Made by a program: the position numbers and the translations under genes. Positions 1,016 through 44,400 of a stretch of 45,853 bases of DNA are shown in pieces. The stretch is from positions 1 through 45,853 of the IMG/VR virus record IMGVR_UViG_3300014890_000015; one strand, given 5' to 3'. The stretch's first letter is position 1, and each line of letters starts with the position of its first letter. The stretch is from a virus. Its lineage: Duplodnaviria; Heunggongvirae; Uroviricota; Caudoviricetes. The notes beneath the pieces were generated by a model, which was given only the letters and a program-made list of their open reading frames with translations, had not been told where the DNA came from and searched no databases.

Positions 1016-2569
1016 TTAAACACTCGCCACGTTATACCAGGTGCCGTTAATCAGTTTCTGAAGCGGTCGATAATACACGCCGCCGATGTTATCTGCCGAA
1101 TTACTTCCGGTTTCCTGCACATTAATACCGGATAACCCGTGGCCTGAAGGTGAGCGAAATGTCCAGGATACTTGGTTACCTCCCGGTTTGTAATACATTT
1201 CGGAACCATAACGCACATCCTGCACGCCGCCATTTCGCTGCTGATAACGGGCATCGAAATTTCCATAGTTTAATGGGGTCATCTGTCCGTTTACAGCGAA
1301 TGTGATACTGCCATCGGTATTTCTCTGGCTGTAAAAATGCCAGCCGGAATCATCACCAAGCTCTGCAACTACAGGTCGGGATGAATTACCCCATAAATTA
1401 AACATTGCGTTTTTCGTGGAGTTGTTGGTGCTGGATAACGTGAATTTTTTAGCATTTCCGGCCTGAATATTTTTTAACGCTATCGCCACACCATTCCGGA
1501 AACGAAATACATGCTGTCCATTCGCATAAACATCCAGAATGCCGTCGCCGTTTTGTTTTATACCTGTATCGTTATCCCCGAGAGCAATTGAGTTTCCGCC
1601 CAGCGCGTTCTTAACGCCGATACCCAGTGCACCATTGACCTGAGAACCACCGCCAACAGACACTTTATGCGACATGGATATCTCTCCTGTCCGCAAATTA
1701 ATGGTGAGCGGACGCAGGGGACCAATATCTCCATTCTCGCCCTGACCTTCACTAGTAGGGATAAGGTGCAGGCACTCTTCAGAACGGCGAAAAATAAGGC
1801 CAAAAGCCTCGTTAAAAATCCTCAATGCATTAACACCACGTATTTTCAGCTCCCCGGTCATCAAATCACCAGATTTTTTTACATATCGCAGATCAAAATC
1901 TGAATAGATATTGCCGGGGTTTATCACACTGAAATAACTTTTCTCGCTATCAAGAAGGCAAATCAAAGGAATACCCTTAATGATATCATTCGCTACCAGC
2001 TCGGACTTGTTCCCCTTATAAAGTGGGAACGTACCAAGAACCTTTCCGCCTAGTGTTAGTTGAAGTGTCGCCGCGTTGGTATTGTTCTGAACGGGGAAAA
2101 CTATAATCGGAGTTCGTAGCGTCCAATCTGTACCTCCATTAACAAAAAACGTCGAGGGAAGTTCCAGCGTCAGTGCGTTTGCAGTGCCACCAGTAACACC
2201 CGCAATATAATGACCGCTCTGAAGCTGCGCTATCTGTACGAAATAGTTTTCCGATCCACGCGTGGCAAAGTTAGCCACAACGTCATTAAGGGACCAACCT
2301 TTCGCGGTTGTTCCTTCCTGCCCACGAATGACTTTCAGCACATCACCGCTTACCGATACCAGGTGACAAATCTCAAATGCAGACTCTTTATTATCGGTAA
2401 GCGTAATTTTTGCATAGACGCGTTGCCCGTTCGATTTATTTTCAAAATCGGCAGAAAGCAATTTTGCAAATTTAGCTCCCGTGCCCGGCATCACCGGAAT
2501 ATCAGTCTGAATCGTCGTAATATCACCAGCCAGTGCTGAAACAACGTTATTTCCGAATCCAAGAATCAT
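1016..2569 (-). CDS. tail fibre protein
   Basis: 517 aa, Gly/Asn/Ser-rich C-terminal half; ATGA overlap with upstream baseplate gene; position before tfa. Confidence 0.55.
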   Translation of the reverse strand: MILGFGNNVVSALAGDITTIQTDIPVMPGTGAKFAKLLSADFENKSNGQRVYAKITLTDNKESAFEICHLVSVSGDVLKVIRGQEGTTAKGWSLNDVVANFATRGSENYFVQIAQLQSGHYIAGVTGGTANALTLELPSTFFVNGGTDWTLRTPIIVFPVQNNTNAATLQLTLGGKVLGTFPLYKGNKSELVANDIIKGIPLICLLDSEKSYFSVINPGNIYSDFDLRYVKKSGDLMTGELKIRGVNALRIFNEAFGLIFRRSEECLHLIPTSEGQGENGDIGPLRPLTINLRTGEISMSHKVSVGGGSQVNGALGIGVKNALGGNSIALGDNDTGIKQNGDGILDVYANGQHVFRFRNGVAIALKNIQAGNAKKFTLSSTNNSTKNAMFNLWGNSSRPVVAELGDDSGWHFYSQRNTDGSITFAVNGQMTPLNYGNFDARYQQRNGGVQDVRYGSEMYYKPGGNQVSWTFRSPSGHGLSGINVQETGSNSADNIGGVYYRPLQKLINGTWYNVASV

Positions 2570-15871: not shown

Positions 15872-16900
15872 TTATGCGTATTTGGCAGACAACAGGGTGA
15901 TCCCCTCAGGGCGGAAGTTCCAGCCCGGCGTCGCGCGCATGGTATACAACGTGGTCAGGCCGCCATCCGGCATAGGGGACGGAATTTCCGTCGGCGCTGC
16001 CATATCACAGAACATCACGTTGACGGCCTGCTGGTTAGGTACCAGCGTGGAGAAAATATTGGTGTTAATGGTGTGACGCGCTTCCGGAACCTCAATCGTC
16101 GGGTTCGTAACGATGATCAGGTCATTACCACCAGCGCCTTTACCGATCAGCGTGTCGTCCTGGCAGAAAATGATGTCGTCGCCTGTCGCCTTATCGGCGA
16201 CTTCTTTAACCATCGTTCCCACCGTTCCGGTACCACCACCAGGACGCTGGTAACTGGTCAGCTCAACAATTCCTGTCCACTCCAGCGCCTTCATGAATCG
16301 CTGTGGGCTCAGAATAACAGTCGTTAATGGCTGCCCCAGCAGCAACATGCGGGTTTTCTGGTCAGCAATCAGGCCAAGCATAAATTTAGCCATCTCACCG
16401 GAATCCCAAGTGGTATATGAATCATTCCCTTTGCTGTCGTTGCCCAGATTCAGCGTCACTGCGTTCGGGGAGTTGGTGATCCCCTCGTTATTAGCTGCAT
16501 TCACGCCATGCAGCAGCATATTACGCAACATTTGAGCGTGTCCCTGACGGTTAGCCAGGCGCAGGCCTTCAATCAGAGAATAGCCCCAGCGATCTGCTGC
16601 ATCAGTATCGAGATAGCTGTATTGCGAGCGGGAAGAAATTCGGTAAGTCATCATTCCGTCATAGCCGCCAGAGATACTGGAAGACGGTAACTGACCCGGC
16701 AGAGACTGGCTGACCTGCGCCTGCGAGGTCATGCGCAGATATTTCTGATAGACCATCAAATCACTGGAACTGATTTTTACCGCTGGAGCACCACCAGCCA
16801 GGACTTCAAACGCCCCGGAAGCCATGCTCTGTTGCACGATCATTTCCGGCAGCACCATTGACGGCGACACAATAGTAGTCGCAGGAGTAAATGCGCTCAT
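15872..16900 (-). CDS. major capsid protein
   Basis: 342 aa, GGGGA RBS, followed by terminator; position after scaffold/protease genes. Confidence 0.55.
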   Translation of the reverse strand: MSAFTPATTIVSPSMVLPEMIVQQSMASGAFEVLAGGAPAVKISSSDLMVYQKYLRMTSQAQVSQSLPGQLPSSSISGGYDGMMTYRISSRSQYSYLDTDAADRWGYSLIEGLRLANRQGHAQMLRNMLLHGVNAANNEGITNSPNAVTLNLGNDSKGNDSYTTWDSGEMAKFMLGLIADQKTRMLLLGQPLTTVILSPQRFMKALEWTGIVELTSYQRPGGGTGTVGTMVKEVADKATGDDIIFCQDDTLIGKGAGGNDLIIVTNPTIEVPEARHTINTNIFSTLVPNQQAVNVMFCDMAAPTEIPSPMPDGGLTTLYTMRATPGWNFRPEGITLLSAKYA

Positions 16901-25462: not shown

Positions 25463-25778
25463 ACTTTTTCTCCTGTAAATAAAAAAGGGCCTCCAGCGGC
25501 CCGGTAATTGACAACATCCCATCAAAAGCACCCGAAAATGCCTTTTGTGTGACGTTGTCTGATGGAATGAATAAAAAGTTAAGCGGATAAATAAGGGTTA
25601 CCAGAAATTAAGATTAATTTATATGTTTAAACAATATCTTTTTATTAGTAGTATTCATGTGCTCCGGAAGGAGAATGTAATTAAGTCAAACTTCATGGAC
25701 TTTGTCCCGCGGTCTTAATCCGACGACCGCGCTACTTTTTCACCCTCTCGCAAATTGCTATCTAAAGGACTTTGTCCC

Positions 25779-26210: not shown

Positions 26211-26285
<75 letters not shown>

Positions 26286-26288
26286 ATA

Positions 26289-26364
<76 letters not shown>

Positions 26365-28604: not shown

Positions 28605-29090
28605 TTAGTTTTGCTGTTCTATTTTAAGCTTGATAGTTTCATACAAAACAATAGTTGCGCCTGTTTTACATAATTCCCGACTGTCATACGCACGAGACCA
28701 ATAACACAACCAATTTTCAAGCTCTTCTCGTGTATAAATTTTACAGGCCAGCCCCTCAGCCATCTCCACAACTTCATCGCCTGGTGCGGTTAATTCGTAT
28801 CCATTTAACAATAAAAAAACCGCACCAGCCATCATTGCTGTGCGCTTGTTTGCATTGGCAAATGGATGATTCTGAATCAGACTTTCAATCAATACCGATG
28901 CCAGTACAAACATGTCGTTGGTTTGCTCATACCATCGAACCATACTGGGACGAGACTGAGAAGAGCTTAAATTATCAACACTCAGCACACCAACAGGTTC
29001 ATCTGGTGTTTGAAGCTCAATTAAAAGGCGATTAATTTCAGTAAGATCATCAACCGAAAGGTAGTGCACTCCTTCAACAATCTCAGCCAT
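28605..29090 (-). CDS. Doc-like (Fic/Doc family) toxin
   Basis: HPFANANKRTAMMAG matches the Doc H-x-F-x-(D/N)-(A/G)-N-K-R signature; 9-nt gap after an upstream small ORF. Confidence 0.65.
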   Translation of the reverse strand: MAEIVEGVHYLSVDDLTEINRLLIELQTPDEPVGVLSVDNLSSSQSRPSMVRWYEQTNDMFVLASVLIESLIQNHPFANANKRTAMMAGAVFLLLNGYELTAPGDEVVEMAEGLACKIYTREELENWLCYWSRAYDSRELCKTGATIVLYETIKLKIEQQN

Positions 29091-29108
29091 AGAGCACAAT
29101 ACCCATCA

Positions 29109-29497: not shown

Positions 29498-29653
29498 TTA
29501 CTTCTCAGATACGTAGTCCACGAAGACAGCGACCTCCGTCTGGCCGGTTCGGATTCGTACCTCGCAGAGGTCTTTCCTCGTTACCAGTGCCGTCACTATG
29601 ACGGTTAAACAGATGACGATCAGGGCGATTAACATCGCCTTTTGCTGCTTCAT
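29498..29653 (-). CDS. hok: Hok/Gef-family type I toxin
   Basis: 51 aa MKQQKAMLIALIVICLTVIVTALVTRKDLCEVRIRTGQTEVAVF... ; AAGGAG RBS; upstream in-frame/overlapping leader consistent with mok-like region. Confidence 0.8.
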   Translation of the reverse strand: MKQQKAMLIALIVICLTVIVTALVTRKDLCEVRIRTGQTEVAVFVDYVSEK

Positions 29654-29992
29654 AGCCTGCTTCTCCTTGCCTTTCGGCACGTAAGAGGCTAACCTGATGT
29701 TGTCATGCATAGGGAGCCTCAGATTAATGTTAAGCGTCTTGCCGGACGCGTAATGTTAACTGGGGCTTTTCTCTGCCTGCCTTACAGTGGCATGCCCGAG
29801 GCAGACAGCCTCAAGCACCCGCAGCAATCTTACCGACACCGATAAGAAAACGCTATTTTTTATTGCCAGCACCTTCTATCCAGGCTAATTTATCTGCGTC
29901 AGAACGGCGCAATGCGCTCGCCTGAGATACGTTTACTTGCCATGGTAACAACAGATAACGGCAATTGTTGTTTCTGTTTTGTTTCCTTCAAA

Positions 29993-30982: not shown

Positions 30983-31270
30983 TCATTTCAACCAATCCCN
31001 NNNNNNNNNAAGGAATTCACGACGACCATCACTGATAATTCGCCGATAATCTTCCAGGCTACTGCAATGCTTGTGCAGATTGCATGGGTGGCATGCCGGA
31101 ACCATGTTGGATATATCGTCACGATCCTGGTGAAGCATATTTCCAGCAAAACGAATGACCGGTTTTACGTGGTCTGCGTGCCACTTTTCGCCAAGTTCGC
31201 AGCCGCAATAAGCACAGCGACCGCCGAACTTCATGCGTAATTCTGCACGTTGTTTTTTCGTCAGTGCCAT
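30983..31270 (-). CDS. HNH endonuclease (3' end interrupted by 10-N gap)
   Basis: CAYCGC...HADHVKP...CHPCNLHK HNH/Zn motif; AAGGAA RBS at ATG 31270; Ns at 31000-31009 fall inside the C-terminal codons. Confidence 0.55.
   Translation of the reverse strand: MALTKKQRAELRMKFGGRCAYCGCELGEKWHADHVKPVIRFAGNMLHQDRDDISNMVPACHPCNLHKHCSSLEDYRRIISDGRREFLXXXXDWLK
31000..31009. other. run of 10 ambiguous bases (assembly gap or mask)
   Basis: Literal n characters in the sequence. Confidence 0.95.
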
Positions 31271-33953: not shown

Positions 33954-34715
33954 TCACTTTTCCGACACAATACGACTGGAGGAATCGACAATCTGTCGAA
34001 CAATATCCCGGTGCTTGTTCAGCTCCCGCAGCGCGGCGCAGACTCGCTCCCACTTCTGGACATGACTTTTCGCCCGACGCAGTTCACGGTTTGCCATATG
34101 CAGCGATGGTAAAACCAGGTCATCCGCTTGCGTTTCGGTGAACGATGGCAACGACTGCACAATGTCCGTCACAGTTTCTGTTTTAATATCTTCCTGTGCG
34201 GCAGCTTCCTGTACCGGTAACGCAACACCTGCTGGCTGAAGAGAGGCTTTACCATCAGTTTTCTCTACCGATGCTGCTTTCGGCTCTGCTGGTAAATTAT
34301 CGCCCGGTATGCAGTAACGAAATTTACCGCCCTGATTTACGCGAATCAGACGACCTTTGCTGATTGCCATTGCCAGCGTTGAAGCCACTTTGCGTGATGT
34401 GGTACCAAACAATGTAGCCAGCTCATCAGCCGTTTGTGGTCCGCGTTGTTCAATCGTCGCGGTTAAATCGCACTCTGAGATTTTCGCTACTGTTGCTGTG
34501 GTGGTTTCTTCCGGCAGTTCTGCCTGCGCTGGCTGTTCCTGCTGAACGTTGTTATCAGCCACACGCCAGGTGTACGCGCTTTTATCAACAAAACCAGCCT
34601 TTTTCAGTTCCCATAGTTCGTTCAGCACTTCTTCACGACTGATATCAAGTCGCGCAGCAAGTTCTATGGATGTGGCTTTTCCCATTGCTTTCAGTGCGTC
34701 AAAAACAGTCTCCAT
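33954..34715 (-). CDS. hypothetical protein, possible winged-helix DNA-binding N-terminus
   Basis: GGGAGA RBS before ATG 34715; follows DnaC-like gene. Confidence 0.4.
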
Positions 34716-35490: not shown

Positions 35491-36279
35491 TTACCCCCTG
35501 AAGCCTGGCGGGATCGCACTGTCCGGCAACGAGACGGTGTTAACCTGTCGGAGCAACGTCTCAGGCCGAACACCTTTCGGCGCGAACAGGCCCTGGTATT
35601 CATTGGCGATGCTGTGTCGAATCACCTGCTCAGGTGTAAAACCCTGCTGACGGAATTTTTCCAGTTCCCGTATCGCCCCGTTAGCGCCCTGCTCCGTTCG
35701 AATCGGTTTTCGCAATGCCTGTCTGAACCGGACCCACTCATGCCAGAGTGTTTCCGGCAACCAATCGGGCAGCTCAATAGCCTCCGGCTCGAATTTTTTA
35801 GACGCTCGTTTTTGGCGAGGGGGATTTAGGGGGAGATCAGTATTTATATCTTCCTCTTCCTCTTCCTCTGGTAACGCTTTTTGATCCGTTTGTGTAACGC
35901 TGGCAGCGTTACCTTTTCGTTTCAGTTCGCGTATTTTTGTAACTCGCTCGTTTGTAACCGCCCGTTTTTTAGAGCTTTTTCCGTTATGACGTTCAAAGTT
36001 AGGTAGAGAAAGCCCAACGTCATTTTCGACCAGCCATCCAACCTGAATTAACGCATCAGCAAAACCAGCCATAAAAGTGATGCGATCTATTGCACTTTTT
36101 GTAACGCCGCGAGCGTTACAATCTGCATTACCGTCTATCATTTGTTGATCCGCCCATGCCCAGAAGCGAATAACCTTCCCTAATGCGGCATCTGGATCAA
36201 TATTCAGAATCTCAGCAAGCCTGAATATTTCCGGCTTATCCGGCGTAATAACCTCGAGCTTTATCCAGTTTGAAGCCAT
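35491..36279 (-). CDS. replication initiation / replisome organiser protein
   Basis: 262 aa immediately upstream of DnaC-like gene; acidic E-run linker. Confidence 0.45.
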   Translation of the reverse strand: MASNWIKLEVITPDKPEIFRLAEILNIDPDAALGKVIRFWAWADQQMIDGNADCNARGVTKSAIDRITFMAGFADALIQVGWLVENDVGLSLPNFERHNGKSSKKRAVTNERVTKIRELKRKGNAASVTQTDQKALPEEEEEEDINTDLPLNPPRQKRASKKFEPEAIELPDWLPETLWHEWVRFRQALRKPIRTEQGANGAIRELEKFRQQGFTPEQVIRHSIANEYQGLFAPKGVRPETLLRQVNTVSLPDSAIPPGFRG

Positions 36280-36356
36280 TTGTTTTCACCTTGTAACGCT
36301 CGCAGCGTTACATTTAACTGATACCGAACAAAACAGTCCGGCGCGATTAATTTCAA

Positions 36357-36779
36357 TCAATGCACTACGACAGAATCGCCAGGCGACCCGCCGCCGCTGA
36401 AATGTGCTTTACGGTAAACGGCCTGGACTGCATCATCATGCGCATCAATTGCCGTACTCAACGCTTCCTGCGCCGCCAGTAATGCACGGCGTTCCAGGGT
36501 ATCGAAGATGCAGAGTCGGTGACGCAGCTCGCGCGGAAGGATTGCCAGAATTGCAGGGATCAGTTTCTGAATTTTTTCCCTTTGCGCTTCCGTTTCACCT
36601 TTTAACCAACGGTGATAGATGTTCTGCTGATTATTCCAGTCCTTGCCTGGTACCAGGGGCAATTCGCCGCCCCCCTGGCGCAGATATTCTTCAGTAATTG
36701 CGTTAGCGACCCACGCCTGCCCTTTTTCAGCGGCTAGGGCTAACAACACTGATTCGATGTGCTCATGCCTGATTTTCAT
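36357..36779 (-). CDS. YdaT-like (CII-position) protein
   Basis: 140 aa; resembles Rac prophage YdaT from memory; overlaps Cro-like gene end. Confidence 0.5.
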   Translation of the reverse strand: MKIRHEHIESVLLALAAEKGQAWVANAITEEYLRQGGGELPLVPGKDWNNQQNIYHRWLKGETEAQREKIQKLIPAILAILPRELRHRLCIFDTLERRALLAAQEALSTAIDAHDDAVQAVYRKAHFSGGGSPGDSVVVH

Positions 36780-37038
36780 GAATCAACTCCTGTGCATTTT
36801 GTGTGTTAGCCTTACATCCAACAGGTAAACCATCGGTCGGATTCGGGTAGATATCAGGCCGGAGTTCATGAGGTGTAACCTCGAAATTCGTAGCCTCTGC
36901 GATACGCAATACCTTTTCAGGGCTTAACTGACTACGTCCAGTAGCAGCGAGGCTAATCATTGATTGCGAACAACCAGCCAGCGCGGCCAAACAAGACTGT
37001 CGTACACGATTTTTTTTCAAATATTCATCTAATGTCAT
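36763..37038 (-). CDS. Cro/YdaS-like HTH protein
   Basis: GAGGTGA RBS; HTH-like segment; first gene of rightward early operon, divergent from repressor. Confidence 0.5.
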   Translation of the reverse strand: MTLDEYLKKNRVRQSCLAALAGCSQSMISLAATGRSQLSPEKVLRIAEATNFEVTPHELRPDIYPNPTDGLPVGCKANTQNAQELIHENQA

Positions 37039-37114
37039 AAGTGTCACCTCAGTAATGCTCACCAAAATATTAACCATACTAATTTAAATGATCAATACCT
37101 ATATCAGTTTGAGA

Positions 37115-37133
37115 TTATGAACTGTATTCATAA
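37115..37133. promoter_or_regulatory. operator-like palindrome TTATGAA-N5-TTCATAA in divergent promoter region
   Basis: 7-bp inverted arms 10 nt upstream of repressor start codon. Confidence 0.35.
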
Positions 37134-37142
37134 GATGGTGGT

Positions 37143-37607
37143 ATGAGAAGAAAACGCGAAGAAATCGCATCGCCGGAAGCTACGCAACGTCTGCGCGCAA
37201 TCTGGGATGCAAAAAAAAGAGAGCTCAAACTGACTCAGGAGCTTGCTGCCGAGCTAATGGGTTTTGAGGCGCAATCTGCGGTTAGCCATTATCTCAACGG
37301 AAAGGCTCCACTTAATACTGATGCGGCATTAAAATTCGCTGTATTACTAAGAGTTAAGCCTGAAGAGTTGAGGCCTGATTTAGCTGATCTGATGAATTAC
37401 GTCCGTTCCTCAGGAACTTATGACGAAAGTTTCGAAGGCGAAGGTTGGCGGATGGTTAACAAGCAACAAGCTGATTTACTAGATCTTTTTGATATCCTTC
37501 CCGAATCAGAAAAAGCAAAACTAATCGAAAGACTTAAAGGTCAGAATGAACTCTACAAAGAAGCATTTGAAAATATGCTGGCAGCTCAAAAACGCATGAA
37601 GAAATAG
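37143..37607 (+). CDS. prophage repressor (RacR-like, HTH)
   Basis: 154 aa with Xre-type HTH segment; divergent from Cro-like gene; followed by terminator. Confidence 0.55.
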   Translation: MRRKREEIASPEATQRLRAIWDAKKRELKLTQELAAELMGFEAQSAVSHYLNGKAPLNTDAALKFAVLLRVKPEELRPDLADLMNYVRSSGTYDESFEGEGWRMVNKQQADLLDLFDILPESEKAKLIERLKGQNELYKEAFENMLAAQKRMKK

Positions 37608-37626
37608 CTCCCACCACCTCGTAACT

Positions 37627-37652
37627 AAACCGCCATTTTTGGCGGTTTTTTT
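37627..37652 (+). terminator. rho-independent terminator after repressor gene
   Basis: AAACCGCCA-TTTTT-GGCGGTTT followed by T-run. Confidence 0.6.
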
Positions 37653-37846
37653 GTCCCCTCCGCCCGCCCCGCCTTACTTTTTATCAAAAAAAACACTAAA
37701 AATTTCATTAGGATAGTACATTTTTATCAACAAAATGCATATTTCTATTGATCATCAATATGAACATTACTAATATTATTACAGAAGCAGCACGGCGCTG
37801 TAGGTTTTAGTTCCGCCACCCGGCGTTAAGGGGAAATGAGGTCAAC

Positions 37847-37999
37847 ATGGATACTATCGATCTTGGCAACAACGAATCTCTGGTATGTGGCGTGTTTCCC
37901 AATCAGGACGGCACATTCACCGCCATGACGTATACCAAAAGCAAATCGTTTAAAACCGAAGCTGGCGCACGTCGCTGGCTTGCCAAAAATACCAGCTAA
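37847..37999 (+). CDS. small protein (50 aa; DUF1391/YdaF-like; not in ORF track)
   Basis: GAGGT RBS before ATG; assignment from memory of Rac ydaF region. Confidence 0.4.
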   Translation: MDTIDLGNNESLVCGVFPNQDGTFTAMTYTKSKSFKTEAGARRWLAKNTS

Positions 38000-38245
38000 A
38001 CCATTTATTGGATTAATTCAATATTCTTGCTGTAGGGGTATAGCCGAGGCCACCAAAGCCCGGAGGTGGTGAAATAAAACCGGGCACAACACGAAGGCGC
38101 ATTTCCGGTATCCATAAAGAGTCGGTCTTGTCTGTTAAATTTAAATGGTGGGAGTGCGCCTCCGGTTGTGAATAACAACACTGCTGTGTGTAGTCCTGGC
38201 GGCATCAGTTTTTTCTTGAAGTTCGACTGATGTCCGCCCTTTTTA

Positions 38246-38391
38246 AAGTGAATTTTGTGATGCGGTGAATGCGGCTCAGCGCACGCGGAACAGTTAAAAC
38301 AAGCGACCTTATGGGTGAAATGCTCCGGCGTTAATTGTTAACTGGTTAACGTCACCTGGAGGCACCAGGCACCGCATCACAAAATTCACTT
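38246..38391. repeat. 22-bp perfect inverted repeat pair (38246-38267 / 38370-38391) flanking a 102-bp spacer
   Basis: AAGTGAATTTTGTGATGCGGTG and its exact reverse complement; spacer contains GTTAACTGGTTAAC. Confidence 0.7.
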
Positions 38392-38412
38392 AGTAACCAA
38401 GAAGGGAATTAT

Positions 38413-38685
38413 ATGCAAGAGATAAGTTTTGAAGTAACAGCAAAAGATGTACAGGTTAAGCCCGATTACAATCAAAAATTATGTATTGAAGTCAATGGCG
38501 TGAAGTTATCAGACCTGATTGATTCAGTTGAAGATAACGACGCTATTATTGAAATGGTTGGAGCCGAAGAAATAGCAGAATACTTTTCAACAGAGGGGCG
38601 TCTTCATGAGCTTCTGGAAGAATTTCCATATCAGGATATCGCTACATTTCTGGAAATTAATGGTTATAAAATTACCGAGGAATAA
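38413..38685 (+). CDS. hypothetical acidic protein (90 aa)
   Basis: ORF starting 20 nt after the inverted-repeat structure. Confidence 0.4.
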   Translation: MQEISFEVTAKDVQVKPDYNQKLCIEVNGVKLSDLIDSVEDNDAIIEMVGAEEIAEYFSTEGRLHELLEEFPYQDIATFLEINGYKITEE

Positions 38686-38703: not shown

Positions 38704-38913
38704 ATGGAACGTAATCATCTAACAGCTATCAGTGCCGCACAGAGTAAATTCGCCATCGCTGTATTTTTACAGGATGAAGAAATGTTTGAGCAGGCCATTA
38801 TTCAGTTTGCAATTGCGACCGGGAGTAAAATAAATGAACACTTTGTTCGCTCTTGTCATGACCGTTTTTCTGACATCAGGCGAAACTCAGGATGTTGTTA
38901 CCGGAATTTATAA
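38704..38913 (+). CDS. hypothetical protein (overlaps next gene by 80 nt; extent uncertain)
   Basis: ORF-track frame only. Confidence 0.25.
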   Translation: MERNHLTAISAAQSKFAIAVFLQDEEMFEQAIIQFAIATGSKINEHFVRSCHDRFSDIRRNSGCCYRNL

Positions 38914-44301: not shown

Positions 44302-44400
44302 GTTGCATTATATCCAAATTATAACTTCATAGCTGATTATTAATAATCAACGTCGGGCGTCAATTTCAGTCTAATATTGTCGCCCGCCAGAGGTGATGCG

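What the first reader, a model, noticed from the sequence alone, without database searches (positions are those of the whole stretch)
36357..37652. Rac-type immunity switch with YdaS/YdaT-like genes
A RacR-like repressor is divergent from a Cro/YdaS-like HTH gene followed by a YdaT-like gene, with a 7-bp-arm palindrome (TTATGAA-N5-TTCATAA, 37115..37133) next to the repressor start. In Rac, the YdaS/YdaT pair has been reported as toxic when de-repressed, so this switch may double as a host-killing module. Family assignments are from memory.
Basis: partly seen in the sequence, partly recalled or inferred. Interest (0 to 1): 0.4.

Follow-up and report, generated by a model that had tools for sequence, protein, structure and literature searches.

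The report
Rac-like prophage immunity switch variant
This is the ordinary lysis/lysogeny control region of a Rac-family prophage of E. coli, carrying a different repressor and operator set from the K-12 Rac prophage; it is a regulatory switch, not a dedicated host-killing module.

Summary
The window is a Rac-family E. coli prophage whose right end is the integrase gene. Gene 36357..36779(-) is a true YdaT: 95% identical to K-12 Rac YdaT, with DNA-contact residues H56/R57 kept. Gene 36763..37038(-) is a YdaS/Cro-family HTH protein, only distantly related to Rac YdaS. The repressor 37143..37607(+) is not RacR-like (hhalign probability 0.1%). It has a lambda-CI-type N-terminal domain and a DicA/PaaR-type C-terminal helical domain, and no LexA-like cleavage domain. 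DNA homology to K-12 Rac stops at 36785 and resumes at 37843, so this is a swapped, probably heteroimmune immunity cassette. It occurs in 75 of 5426 complete E. coli genomes.

The palindrome alone is near chance (P≈0.1). It is, however, one of three related 17-bp dyads overlapping predicted PR, PRM and PL promoters, and the half-sites co-vary between OR and OL in relatives. A YdaT-box spans the ydaT start codon. Published work treats YdaS and YdaT as Cro and CII analogues whose toxicity follows overexpression. Verdict: a new member of a known kind, low interest.

The parts
36357..36779 (-). ydaT: CII-analogue transcription factor, 140 aa
   Evidence: 95% identical to K-12 Rac YdaT, with H56/R57/W58 kept. 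Pfam YdaT_toxin 44.2 bits against 21. PHROG 163 'CII-like transcriptional activator', E 8e-37. PDB 3c4r and 8bt1 (YdaT of CP-933P), E 1e-7 and 1e-6.
36763..37038 (-). cro-like gene of the YdaS family, 91 aa; overlaps ydaT by 17 nt
   Evidence: Pfam YdaS_toxin 39.1 bits against 30, plus HTH_3. PHROG 35, E 2e-28. 42% over 50 aa to Rac YdaS. 65% to 'DicC' of phage Rac-SA53 and 45% to the Cro of Stx2 phage F039. 49% to the YdaS of an O157:H7 PaaR-type prophage. SD GAGGTG at 37044..37049; start as in RefSeq.
36769..36786 (-). YdaT-box TTGATTCATGAAAATCAG, with the ydaT ATG in its spacer
   Evidence: Exact match to TTGATT-N6-AATCAR. The footprinted Rac box is ATGATTCATGAAAATCAA (PMC11879457) and the CP-933P box is TTGATT-N6-AATCAA (PMC9986795). 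The same box is at the ydaT start in Rac-SA53, SCU-116, an O157:H7 prophage and a Hafnia prophage. It is also the left breakpoint of homology to K-12 Rac.
36804..36812 (+). predicted PRE-like extended -10 (TGT-TAGCCT) reading toward the repressor gene; inferred
   Evidence: A TAnnnT hexamer lies exactly 20 nt after the box in six loci with otherwise different sequence: TAGCCT, TAACCT, TATTCT, and TATGAT in K-12. This would put the box centre near -41.5. No transcript data.
37067..37095 (-). predicted PR-like promoter for cro-ydaT: TTGATC, 17 nt, TAATAT
   Evidence: Own scan. Same hexamers and spacing as the PL-like promoter. The -35 and -10 positions are conserved in the alignment of six related loci. 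Inferred, no transcript data.
37068..37084 (.). OR1-like operator TATTAAC-CAT-ACTAATT, overlapping the PR -10 and spacer
   Evidence: (D3). The position is conserved in relatives, 47-49 nt from the OR3-like site.
37109..37136 (+). predicted PRM-like promoter TTGAGA, 16 nt, TAAGAT; transcription start predicted at about 37143, the A of the repressor ATG, so the mRNA may be leaderless
   Evidence: The -10 to ATG distance is 6 nt in the window and five of the six other aligned loci (10 nt in Stx2 F039), while the intervening bases vary; Rac-SA53 has no SD there. Lambda cI and PaaR2 are leaderless (PMC8630535). Inferred.
37115..37133 (.).
   Evidence: It fills the spacer of the PRM-like promoter, centred about -19 from the predicted start. 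A homologous dyad is at the same position in relatives.
37143..37607 (+). prophage repressor (CI analogue), 154 aa: lambda-CI-type N-terminal domain, linker, DicA/PaaR-type C-terminal helical domain
   Evidence: Residues 12-82 match the lambda CI N-terminal domain, E 5.5e-9. Foldseek TM 0.74-0.82, rmsd 1.4-2.1 A. Residues 105-154 match the DicA C-terminus (NCBIfam E 7e-9). hhalign to DicA 97.8%, E 1.3e-12. 69.5% identical to 'dicA' of Rac-SA53 and 53% over residues 15-89 to an S24-bearing CI of Stx2 phage F039. No S24 domain. AF2 model pLDDT 79: helices 11-89, disordered 90-106, helices 107-118 and 121-153.
37627..37652 (+). intrinsic terminator after the repressor gene
   Evidence: 9-bp stem with 5 GC pairs, 4-nt loop, then a T-run.
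37725..37741 (.). possible weak OL2-like site TATCAAC-AAA-ATGCATA
   Evidence: 2 mismatches to the pattern. At that stringency 8 hits were found against 4.2 expected, so this site is not significant on its own.
37748..37776 (+). predicted PL-like promoter: TTGATC, 17 nt, TAATAT
   Evidence: Hexamers identical to the PR-like promoter. The same arrangement is seen in Rac-SA53 and SCU-116. Inferred.
37759..37775 (.). OL1-like operator TATGAAC-ATT-ACTAATA, overlapping the PL spacer and -10
   Evidence: Exact match to the pattern. Its left half equals the OR3 left half and its right half equals the OR1 right half. In four related loci the OL site shares locus-specific half-sites with that locus's OR sites.
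37802..37846 (+). conserved leader and right junction of the exchangeable cassette
   Evidence: Homology to K-12 Rac resumes at 37843. The 45-nt piece is present in over 1000 E. coli genomes next to different repressors, including Qin dicA-ydfA. No stable fold.
37847..37999 (+). first PL-operon gene, DUF1391 (ydaF/ydfA-like)
   Evidence: Pfam DUF1391, E 3.5e-29. 88% identical to Rac YdaF.

Best explanation
This is the immunity (lysis/lysogeny) region of a Rac-family lambdoid prophage of E. coli. It carries an immunity cassette different from the K-12 Rac one.

**Repressor.**
- The 154-aa protein binds DNA through a lambda-CI-type N-terminal HTH domain. That much is shown by homology and by the predicted fold.
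- It probably oligomerises through a DicA/PaaR2-type C-terminal helical domain. This is inferred.

**Operators and promoters (all binding and regulation inferred).**
- The repressor is proposed to bind 17-bp dyads of the form TAT(G/T)A(A/G)(C/T)-N3-inverse.
- One dyad overlaps the -10 of the rightward promoter for cro-ydaT (OR1-like, 37068..37084).
- One overlaps the leftward early promoter (OL1-like, 37759..37775).
- Binding at OR1 and OL1 would silence cro, ydaT, replication and the Kil/DicF/RecET/xis-int operon. Binding at OR3, by excess repressor or by the Cro-like protein, would shut off repressor synthesis. Together this would give a bistable switch.
- The repressor mRNA is probably leaderless.

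**YdaT.**
- YdaT is the CII analogue. It should bind the YdaT-box spanning its own start codon and activate an adjacent promoter reading back through cro toward the repressor gene. This is a PRE-like lysogeny-establishment circuit.
- The box is shown by sequence and the binding is known for the 95%-identical Rac protein. The promoter location is inferred.

**Induction.** The repressor lacks a LexA-like domain, so induction is not by RecA-stimulated self-cleavage. The trigger is unknown.

**Toxicity.** Harm to the host on de-repression would be a consequence of prophage early gene expression, not the purpose of the module.
For: **Context.**
- Relatives 98.8% identical to the 1.6-kb query around the finding (36300..37900) are prophages at ttcA with intR/xisR/recET.
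- The window is collinear with K-12 Rac except for defined patches.

**Proteins.**
- YdaT, the cro-like protein and the repressor were assigned as listed under parts.
- Lambda DNA-contact positions Q33, Q44 and N52 align with the family-invariant Q32 and Q44 and with N52, which is conserved in over 90% of sequences. The outer TAT of lambda half-sites is kept in these operators.

**Sites.**
- Three related dyads lie exactly at the three predicted promoters.
- OR1-to-OR3 spacing of 47-49 nt is conserved in five diverged loci, and each locus's OL site re-uses that locus's own half-sites: TATGAAC here, TATGAAT in Hafnia, TATTAAT in L007, TATTAGT in Rac-SA53.
- The YdaT-box, followed after 20 nt by TAnnnT, is conserved across six loci.

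**Synteny.** The repressor / cro / ydaT trio is kept in prophages whose repressors are 56-78% identical and whose replication modules are unrelated.

**Experiments on homologous systems.**
- PaaR2, YdaS and YdaT act as CI, Cro and CII, with OR, OL and PRE, and the locus is bistable (PMC8630535).
- The YdaT-box has been footprinted and activates repressor expression in Rac (PMC11879457).
- A YdaT-DNA structure has been solved (PMC9986795).
Against: - No binding, transcript or phenotype data exist for this allele. All promoters, start sites and operator assignments are from sequence.
- No convincing central OR2-like site was found, so cooperative lambda-style OR1-OR2 binding and PRM activation cannot be argued.
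- The operator pattern was derived from the sites it then scores.
- In Rac, YdaS was reported not to repress racR (PMC9638921), so Cro-like behaviour is not guaranteed.
- Wons et al. place the YdaT-activated promoter about 190 bp from the box, not next to it (PMC11879457).
- I did not establish that the prophage is intact or inducible.
Confidence: 0.85

Rival explanations
1. One reading: a RacR-type repressor whose main role is to hold down a YdaS/YdaT toxin pair, so that the locus is a toxin-repressor (host-killing or addiction) module.
For: - racR is essential in K-12 because of ydaS/ydaT expression (PMC5700373, PMC5700377).
- Rac YdaT expression causes filamentation and death (PMC11879457).
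- YdaT here is 95% identical to the Rac protein, with the DNA-binding residues H56/R57 intact.
- Pfam still names both families 'toxin'.
Against: - The repressor is unrelated to RacR and RacR operators are absent.
- The cro-like protein is only 42% identical to Rac YdaS, over 50 aa.
- CP-933P YdaT showed no toxicity, and YdaS and YdaT behave as Cro and CII analogues (PMC8630535, PMC5917428).
- YdaT has a defined DNA site and regulatory role (PMC9986795, PMC11879457).
- The module sits at the canonical immunity position of a prophage with replication, Q-like, lysis and recombination genes.
Confidence: 0.08
2. YdaS-like and YdaT form a type II toxin-antitoxin pair, as the Pfam names imply, with the upstream HTH protein as an extra regulator.
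For: - Pfam family names.
- Overlapping small genes.
- An O157:H7 relative carries a genuine RelB/ParE pair next to its repressor.
Against: - Both proteins are HTH DNA-binding regulators.
- Earlier tests found no TA behaviour, as summarised in PMC5917428 and PMC8630535.
- No toxin fold or catalytic domain was detected.
- The PaaA/ParE genes of the O157 relative are absent here.
Confidence: 0.02
3. The region is an inactive relic: the genes are intact by chance or recent acquisition, and the dyads are AT-rich coincidences.
For: - Many Rac-type prophages are cryptic.
- A close relative carries pseudogenes and an IS in its late region.
- The palindrome alone is near chance.
Against: - All three ORFs are full length, and the cassette is kept at 94-99.7% identity in 75 genomes.
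- The same architecture, with co-varying OR and OL half-sites, is kept in relatives down to 56% repressor identity.
- The site family exceeds chance: 4 hits against 0.31 expected.
Confidence: 0.05

Closest known systems
racR-ydaS-ydaT of the K-12 Rac prophage
   Same: - Same prophage family and the same slot, between the ydaF-like gene and ydaU/ydaV.
- YdaT is 95% identical, and the YdaT-box spans the ydaT ATG.
- Same gene order and divergent layout.
   Different: - The repressor is unrelated to RacR.
- The operators differ: TATGAAC-type dyads here, TAGGC-N3-GCCTA in Rac.
- The cro-like protein is only a distant YdaS relative.
- There is no ydaG or sieB.
- The 1.06-kb cassette has no DNA similarity to Rac.
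PaaR2-YdaS-YdaT switch of CP-933P (E. coli O157:H7), Jurenas et al. 2021
   Same: - A non-cleavable HTH repressor with the same type of C-terminal helical domain: 30% over 46 aa, E 6e-5, to a PaaR-type repressor of an O157:H7 prophage.
- The cro-like protein is 49% identical to that prophage's YdaS.
- Both have OR and OL with identical PR and PL hexamers, a probably leaderless repressor mRNA, and a YdaT-box with a PRE.
   Different: - There is no paaA-parE toxin-antitoxin pair after the repressor.
- The N-terminal DNA-binding domain is lambda-CI-like rather than PaaR2-like.
- YdaT is the Rac type, only 32% identical to the CP-933P type.
- The O157 locus I compared (L011) is a PaaR-type paralogue, not verified to be CP-933P itself.
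dicA-dicC-ydaT of Escherichia phage Rac-SA53 (KU052037)
   Same: - This is the closest sequenced phage.
- Repressor 69.5%, Cro 65% and YdaT 96% identical, with the same spacing of all elements.
   Different: - The recognition helix differs (QSAVSHY here, QGTVSQY in Rac-SA53), and so do the operator half-sites (TATGAAC against TATTAG/TATTGG). A different immunity specificity is therefore probable.
- The cassette DNA is only 68% identical.
DicA-DicC of the Qin prophage
   Same: - Whole-length profile match of the repressor to DicA: 97.8%, E 1.3e-12.
- The same conserved leader and DUF1391 gene lie downstream.
- The repressor controls an operon with cell-division inhibitors.
   Different: - It scores 35.6 bits against the NCBIfam DicA cut-off of 101, so it is not a DicA orthologue.
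- DicC is not a YdaS-family protein.
- Qin's YdaT-like gene (ydfX) is truncated.
cI-cro-cII of phage lambda
   Same: - The repressor N-terminal domain is homologous: 35-42% identity, TM 0.74-0.82.
- 17-bp dyads begin with TAT.
- OR1-like and OR3-like sites lie about -67 and -19 from the repressor start, as in lambda. This is from my knowledge of lambda.
- A PL/OL lies beyond a terminator.
   Different: - There is no S24 self-cleavage domain.
- Cro and CII are replaced by unrelated YdaS and YdaT families.
- No clear OR2 was found, and there are no rex genes.

Membership tests
K-12 Rac racR-ydaS-ydaT module | Repressor homologous to RacR | tested here: not met
   No BLASTP hit at E<=10. hhalign of a 21-sequence family profile against RacR: probability 0.13%, E 0.45.
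K-12 Rac racR-ydaS-ydaT module | RacR operators (T/A)TAGGC-N3-GCCTA(T/A) in the intergenic region (PMC9638921) | tested here: not met
   With up to 2 mismatches there is only one hit in the window, at 16369, far from the locus.
K-12 Rac racR-ydaS-ydaT module | YdaS-family protein encoded divergently from the repressor | tested here: met
   PF15943, 39.1 bits against a cut-off of 30. 42% over 50 aa to Rac YdaS, E 1e-6.
K-12 Rac racR-ydaS-ydaT module | YdaT orthologue with a YdaT-box at its start codon | tested here: met
   95% identity over 140 aa. TTGATTCATGAAAATCAG at 36769..36786.
Lambdoid immunity region (CI/Cro/CII-type switch) | Divergent repressor and cro genes separated by a short region with back-to-back promoters | tested here: met
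   104-nt intergenic region. PR-like promoter at 37067..37095(-) and PRM-like promoter at 37109..37136(+). Promoters are predicted only.
Lambdoid immunity region (CI/Cro/CII-type switch) | Repeated dyad operators at OR and at a second, distant OL/PL | tested here: met
   Sites at 37068, 37116 and 37759: 4 hits against 0.31 expected. OR and OL half-sites co-vary per locus in relatives. Protein binding was not tested.
Lambdoid immunity region (CI/Cro/CII-type switch) | Three operators at OR allowing cooperative binding | tested here: inconclusive
   Only two clear sites, 48 nt apart. The central 17-mer matches at chance level.
Lambdoid immunity region (CI/Cro/CII-type switch) | Bistability and immunity to superinfection | not testable with these tools
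   Needs lysogens, reporters and phage crosses.
LexA-like (S24) CI repressors | C-terminal peptidase S24 self-cleavage domain | tested here: not met
   The 154-aa protein has only HTH_3/HTH_31 in Pfam. Its C-terminus is modelled as two helices. Relatives with the same N-terminal domain that do carry PF00717 exist (P0034 and P0035; F039 CI).
DicA-type repressors (NCBIfam PRK09706) | HTH_3 domain plus the DicA C-terminal helical segment, scoring above the family cut-off | tested here: inconclusive
   The architecture is shared: hhalign 97.8%, E 1.3e-12 over 120 columns. The NCBIfam score is 35.6 bits against 101, and only residues 105-154 match. It is a relative, not an orthologue.
Type II toxin-antitoxin pair (YdaS/YdaT as named in Pfam) | A protein toxin with a cellular target, neutralised by direct binding of the antitoxin | not testable with these tools
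   Sequence shows two HTH regulators. Published tests argue against TA behaviour (PMC5917428, PMC8630535).

The most novel reading that the evidence does not exclude
**The reading.** The YdaT (CII-analogue) regulon of Rac-type prophages may be wider, and differently wired, than published.

**Evidence at the ydaT start.**
- The YdaT-box at the ydaT start is followed after exactly 20 nt by a TAnnnT -10 hexamer in six diverged loci, including K-12.
- This suggests a class-II-type PRE promoter immediately next to the box, rather than activation of a promoter about 190 bp away.

**Evidence near xis.**
- A second perfect box, at 44333..44350 here and at L001 3504..3521 in K-12, sits between the RalA antitoxin sRNA promoter and a predicted xis-int promoter, with -10 hexamers 20-21 nt away on both sides.
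- YdaT may therefore co-activate int/xis, as lambda CII does at PI, together with the RalA antitoxin.

**The repressor.** It is a natural chimera of a lambda-CI DNA-binding domain and a DicA/PaaR2 oligomerisation domain. That implies SOS-independent induction.
Probability: 0.3. Interest if true: 0.45.

Novelty: new member of a known kind. Interest (0 to 1): 0.2.

Why it matters
- **Annotation.** The locus shows that 'Rac-type' prophages carry at least three interchangeable immunity cassettes. In 5426 complete E. coli genomes the counts are K-12 racR type 1085, Rac-SA53 type 180 and this type 75. All are joined to the same ydaT and the same ydaF-like leader. Results on RacR (essentiality, cross-talk with C proteins) should therefore not be transferred to every prophage that has a 'toxin YdaT family protein'.
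- **Prophage biology.** The cassette gives a clean natural example of repressor domain shuffling: a lambda-CI N-terminal domain on a DicA/PaaR-type C-terminal domain. It also provides a predicted operator set that could be tested in a day.
- **Limits.** It does not open a new question, because the circuit logic is already established for CP-933P, Rac and lambda.

Tried and rejected
- **Third (OR2-like) operator.** I looked between 37085 and 37115. No 17-mer there beats chance, and only a weak TGAT-N10-ATCA dyad is present.
- **SOS-linked induction.** No LexA box was found (TACTGT-N8-ACAGTA, up to 2 mismatches, 0 hits). None of the 30 ORFs scanned against Pfam, of which 14 were also scanned against PHROGs, is an antirepressor. 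Not every ORF of the window was scanned.
- **Known RNA families.** Rfam at E<=1 finds nothing in 36300..38184 apart from a spurious tmRNA fragment. The nearest hits are the DicF-like and STnc100-like matches downstream at 38185..38416.
- **Leader fold.** The predicted PL leader 37783..37860 folds no better than shuffles (z +1.5), so I dropped the idea of a nut-like or attenuator structure.
- **Longer cro ORF.** The ORF from ATG 37077 (104 aa) was rejected in favour of ATG 37038. That start has a GAGGTG SD, matches RefSeq, and the extension would overlap the predicted PR.
- **Weak sites not counted.** The weak TTGATT-N6-AACCAG site inside cro (36960..36977) and the 2-mismatch OL2-like site were not counted as evidence.
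- **Paper not available.** Jobling 2016 (PMC4957749), which describes Rac-SA53, is not held in the library.
- **Searches not used.** The large representative-protein search and the metagenome and genome collection scans were not used, because close and distant relatives were already in hand.
Full report
**1. What is in the sequence**

ORF listing and direct reading show three genes.
- A 154-aa gene lies at 37143..37607 on the + strand. It is followed by a clean intrinsic terminator at 37627..37648 plus a T-run.
- A 91-aa gene lies at 36763..37038 on the - strand. This start is the one RefSeq uses in near-identical genomes.
- A 140-aa gene lies at 36357..36779 on the - strand. It overlaps the 91-aa gene by 17 nt.

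The palindrome TTATGAA-CTGTA-TTCATAA is exactly at 37115..37133.

**2. Context**

- The 1.6-kb region around the finding matches prophages in E. coli chromosomes at up to 98.8% identity.
- In strain W13-16 the neighbourhood runs ydaV, ydaT, regulator, HTH protein, DUF1391, kil, recE, recT, ralR, xisR, intR, ttcA.
- Alignment to the K-12 Rac prophage shows collinearity at 88-95% identity for ydaV/ydaW, ydaT, the ydaF-like gene, recET and xis-int. The window ends at the end of intR.
- Homology to K-12 stops at window 36785, which is 6 nt upstream of the ydaT ATG. It resumes only at 37843, just before the ydaF-like gene.
- The 1057 bp in between (the cro-like gene, the intergenic region, the repressor gene and the PL region) have no DNA similarity to the 1362 bp that hold ydaS, racR and ydaG in K-12. 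This is a classical lambdoid immunity-cassette exchange.

**3. The three proteins**

*YdaT*
- It is 95% identical to Rac YdaT over all 140 residues.
- The seven substitutions spare H56, R57 and W58. Wons et al. showed these are needed for DNA binding (PMC11879457).
- It hits Pfam PF06254, PHROG 163 ('CII-like transcriptional activator') and the solved YdaT structures 3c4r and 8bt1.

*The 91-aa protein*
- It passes the Pfam YdaS_toxin threshold, 39.1 bits against 30.
- It is a distant relative of Rac YdaS, 42% over 50 aa.
- It is closer to 'DicC' of phage Rac-SA53 (65%), to the YdaS of an O157:H7 prophage that carries a PaaR-type repressor with a RelB/ParE pair (49%), and to the Cro of Stx2 phage F039 (45%).

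*The 154-aa protein is not RacR-like*
- There is no BLASTP hit to RacR, and the profile-profile probability is 0.13%.
- Residues 12-82 are homologous to the lambda CI N-terminal domain. PDB sequence search gives E 5.5e-9. The AlphaFold model, mean pLDDT 79, superposes on 1lmb, 1lli and 3kz3 with TM 0.74-0.82 and rmsd 1.4-2.1 A.
- Residues 15-89 are 53% identical to the N-terminal domain of an S24-bearing CI of Stx2 phages.
- Residues 105-154 match the C-terminus of DicA, the Qin prophage repressor (NCBIfam E 7e-9). The whole family profile aligns to DicA with 97.8% probability and E 1.3e-12.
- The same C-terminal segment is shared with the PaaR-type repressor of the O157:H7 prophage (E 6e-5).
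- The model shows a disordered linker at 90-106, then a short helix and a long helix at 107-153.
- There is no peptidase S24 domain. Database relatives do exist in which the same N-terminal domain is fused to S24 (P0034 and P0035).
- The protein is therefore a non-cleavable CI analogue with a lambda-type DNA-binding domain and a DicA/PaaR-type C-terminal domain.
- PaaR2 is reported to octamerise (PMC8630535). Oligomerisation here is only an inference from that.
- Full-length homologues of 50-88% identity occur in Salmonella, Hafnia, Enterobacter, Phytobacter, Dickeya and Yersinia. In the two loci I fetched, the repressor / cro / ydaT trio is kept next to unrelated replication modules.

**4. 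Regulatory sites**

*The palindrome on its own is weak evidence.* There are 100 perfect 7-bp-arm palindromes in the window, and 9.6% of shuffles of the AT-rich intergenic region contain one.

*It belongs to a family of three related dyads.*

| Site | Coordinates | Sequence |
|---|---|---|
| OR1-like | 37068..37084 | TATTAAC-CAT-ACTAATT |
| OL1-like | 37759..37775 | TATGAAC-ATT-ACTAATA |

- The unbiased repeat search paired all three (families D3 and D5).
- The pattern TATKARY-N3-RYTMATA with at most 1 mismatch gives 4 hits in 45.8 kb against 0.31 expected. Three of the four are these sites.
- The pattern was written from the sites, so independent support matters.

*Independent support from relatives.* I compared Rac-SA53, SCU-116, a Hafnia prophage, a metagenomic locus and Stx2 phage F039.
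- Dyads lie at the same two OR positions, 47-49 nt apart.
- Each locus's OL site re-uses that locus's own half-sites: TATGAAC here, TATGAAT in Hafnia, TATTAAT in L007, TATTAGT in Rac-SA53.
- The repertoire tracks the recognition helix: QS(A/S)VSHY here and in Hafnia, QGTVSQY in Rac-SA53. F039 was compared at OR only.
- The lambda contact positions Q33 and Q44 are invariant in the family as Q32 and Q44. N52 is conserved in over 90% of sequences. This fits the shared outer TAT of the half-sites. That last point rests on my knowledge of the lambda repressor-operator complex.

*Predicted promoters.*

| Promoter | Coordinates | Elements | Operator overlap |
|---|---|---|---|
| PR-like | 37095..37067 (-) | TTGATC, 17 nt, TAATAT | OR1 covers the -10 and spacer |
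| PRM-like | 37109..37136 (+) | TTGAGA, 16 nt, TAAGAT | the palindrome fills the spacer |
| PL-like | 37748..37776 (+) | TTGATC, 17 nt, TAATAT | OL1 covers the spacer and -10 |

- The PRM-like -10 ends 6 nt before the repressor ATG. This distance is kept in the window and five of the six other aligned loci (10 nt in Stx2 F039), while the intervening bases vary, and Rac-SA53 has no Shine-Dalgarno there.
- A leaderless repressor mRNA, as for lambda cI and PaaR2 (PMC8630535), is therefore likely.
- I found no convincing central OR2 site.
- RacR operators are absent from the window's switch. The window-type dyad is absent from K-12 Rac. The two cassettes should therefore be heteroimmune.

**5. The YdaT circuit**

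- The sequence TTGATTCATGAAAATCAG at 36769..36786 (- strand) carries the ydaT ATG in its spacer.
- It differs at the two outermost bases from the footprinted Rac YdaT-box ATGATTCATGAAAATCAA (PMC11879457).
- It differs from the CP-933P consensus TTGATT-N6-AATCAA (PMC9986795) only at its last base.
- In Rac, this box is needed for YdaT to activate racR transcription 29-fold (PMC11879457). In CP-933P, YdaT activates a PRE between ydaS and ydaT (PMC8630535).
- In the window, and in Rac-SA53, SCU-116, the O157:H7 locus, the Hafnia locus and K-12 itself, the box is followed after exactly 20 nt, in the direction of the repressor gene, by a TAnnnT hexamer. The hexamer is TGT-TAGCCT here, TAACCT in the O157:H7 locus, TATTCT in Hafnia and TATGAT in K-12.
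- This would centre the box near -41.5 of a PRE-type promoter. That is my inference. The published Rac model instead invokes a promoter about 190 bp away.

**6. Is it a host-killing module?**

- Two 2017 papers reported that racR is essential because ydaS and ydaT are toxic (PMC5700373, PMC5700377).
- Jobling's letter (PMC5917428) argues that YdaS and YdaT are Cro and CII analogues, and that prophage repressors are 'essential' only because of what they repress. The CP-933P study (PMC8630535) supports this with experiments.
- Wons et al. (PMC11879457) show that Rac YdaT is a tetrameric transcription factor. Its forced expression filaments cells, in part through direct activation of host rcsA.
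- With 95% identity, the YdaT here may do the same. That is plausible but untested, and it is a by-product of a regulator.
- Downstream of the predicted PL lie a DicF-like sRNA (38185..38239; 39.3 bits, below the Rfam cut-off of 48) and a lambda-Kil-like ORF (38704..38913). These are the usual cell-division inhibitors controlled by such repressors.

**7. How common and how new**

Counts are for 5426 complete E. coli genomes, requiring at least 80% coverage of the cassette.

| Cassette type | Genomes |
|---|---|
| This window's type | 75 |
| Rac-SA53 type | 180 |
| K-12 racR-ydaS type | 1085 |

- The best match to this cassette is 99.7% identical.
- No sequenced phage in the phage collection carries this cassette. 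The nearest is Rac-SA53, at 68% DNA identity.
- RefSeq already annotates the three genes generically.
- The circuit type is established. This allele is uncharacterised. Hence 'new member of a known kind'.

**8. Limits**

- Everything about binding, promoters, start sites, oligomerisation, immunity specificity and toxicity is inferred from sequence and from homologous systems.
- The induction signal is unknown. There is no S24 domain, no LexA box, and no antirepressor among the ORFs scanned.
- I did not establish whether the prophage is intact.

Noticed in passing
window 44333..44350 (also K-12 Rac L001 3504..3521 and Rac-SA53 L012 2326..2343): A perfect YdaT-box-like palindrome, CTGATTATTAATAATCAA, lies between the RalA antitoxin sRNA (Rfam RF02694, 44297..44119, minus strand) and xis (ATG 44402). 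-10 hexamers lie 20-21 nt away on both sides: TATAAT at 44312..44307 toward ralA, and TAATAT at 44372..44377 toward xis-int. This suggests a YdaT (CII-like) input on int/xis and on the RalA antitoxin, analogous to lambda PI. It is not mentioned in PMC11879457.
   Followed up: partly
window 34332..34349 (also K-12 L001 13119..13136): Another box-like perfect palindrome, CTGATTTACGCGAATCAG, lies inside the DUF1627/ydaW-like gene. No obvious -10 hexamer lies at the 20-nt offset.
   Followed up: partly
window 38185..38416: There is a DicF-like sRNA match (38185..38239, 39.3 bits, cut-off 48, E 1.7e-6) and an adjacent STnc100-like match (38241..38416, 40.7 bits, cut-off 47). Both are in the predicted PL operon upstream of a lambda-Kil-like ORF at 38704..38913.
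   Followed up: no
window 35853..36358: The N-terminal half of the replication initiator (262 aa, 35491..36279) has no DNA similarity to K-12 ydaU, whereas the C-terminal 124 aa are 81% identical. This is a second mosaic patch, presumably changing origin specificity.
   Followed up: no
window 29498..29820 and 28605..29099: A hok/mok-like ORF with a sok antisense RNA is present (Rfam RF01794, 109.6 bits; ORF 29498..29710 hits a MokW-like PHROG). A Fic/Doc-family ORF lies at 28605..29099(-). These are genuine toxin-type loci elsewhere in the prophage.
   Followed up: no
window 26214..26364: Two tRNA genes lie on the minus strand between the Q-like (DUF1133) gene and the lysis genes.
   Followed up: no
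window 25643..25659: A fourth operator-like 17-mer, TATTAGTAGTATTCATG (1 mismatch), lies about 110 nt upstream of the holin gene start (25531, minus strand). It may be chance.
   Followed up: no
window 37802..37846: This 45-nt leader before the DUF1391 gene is conserved in over 1000 E. coli genomes next to different repressors, including Qin dicA-ydfA. It has no stable fold. With the YdaT-box on the other side, it looks like a conserved junction that brackets exchangeable immunity cassettes.
   Followed up: partly
window 31000..31009: There is a run of 10 N, a masked or unresolved stretch in the source sequence.
   Followed up: no
L004 (E. coli SCU-116) 1069..2322: The Rac-SA53-type repressor and cro are joined here to a CP-933P-type YdaT, 33% identical to the Rac type. 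The YdaT-box at the junction is identical. This shows that ydaT alleles and immunity cassettes reassort independently.
   Followed up: no
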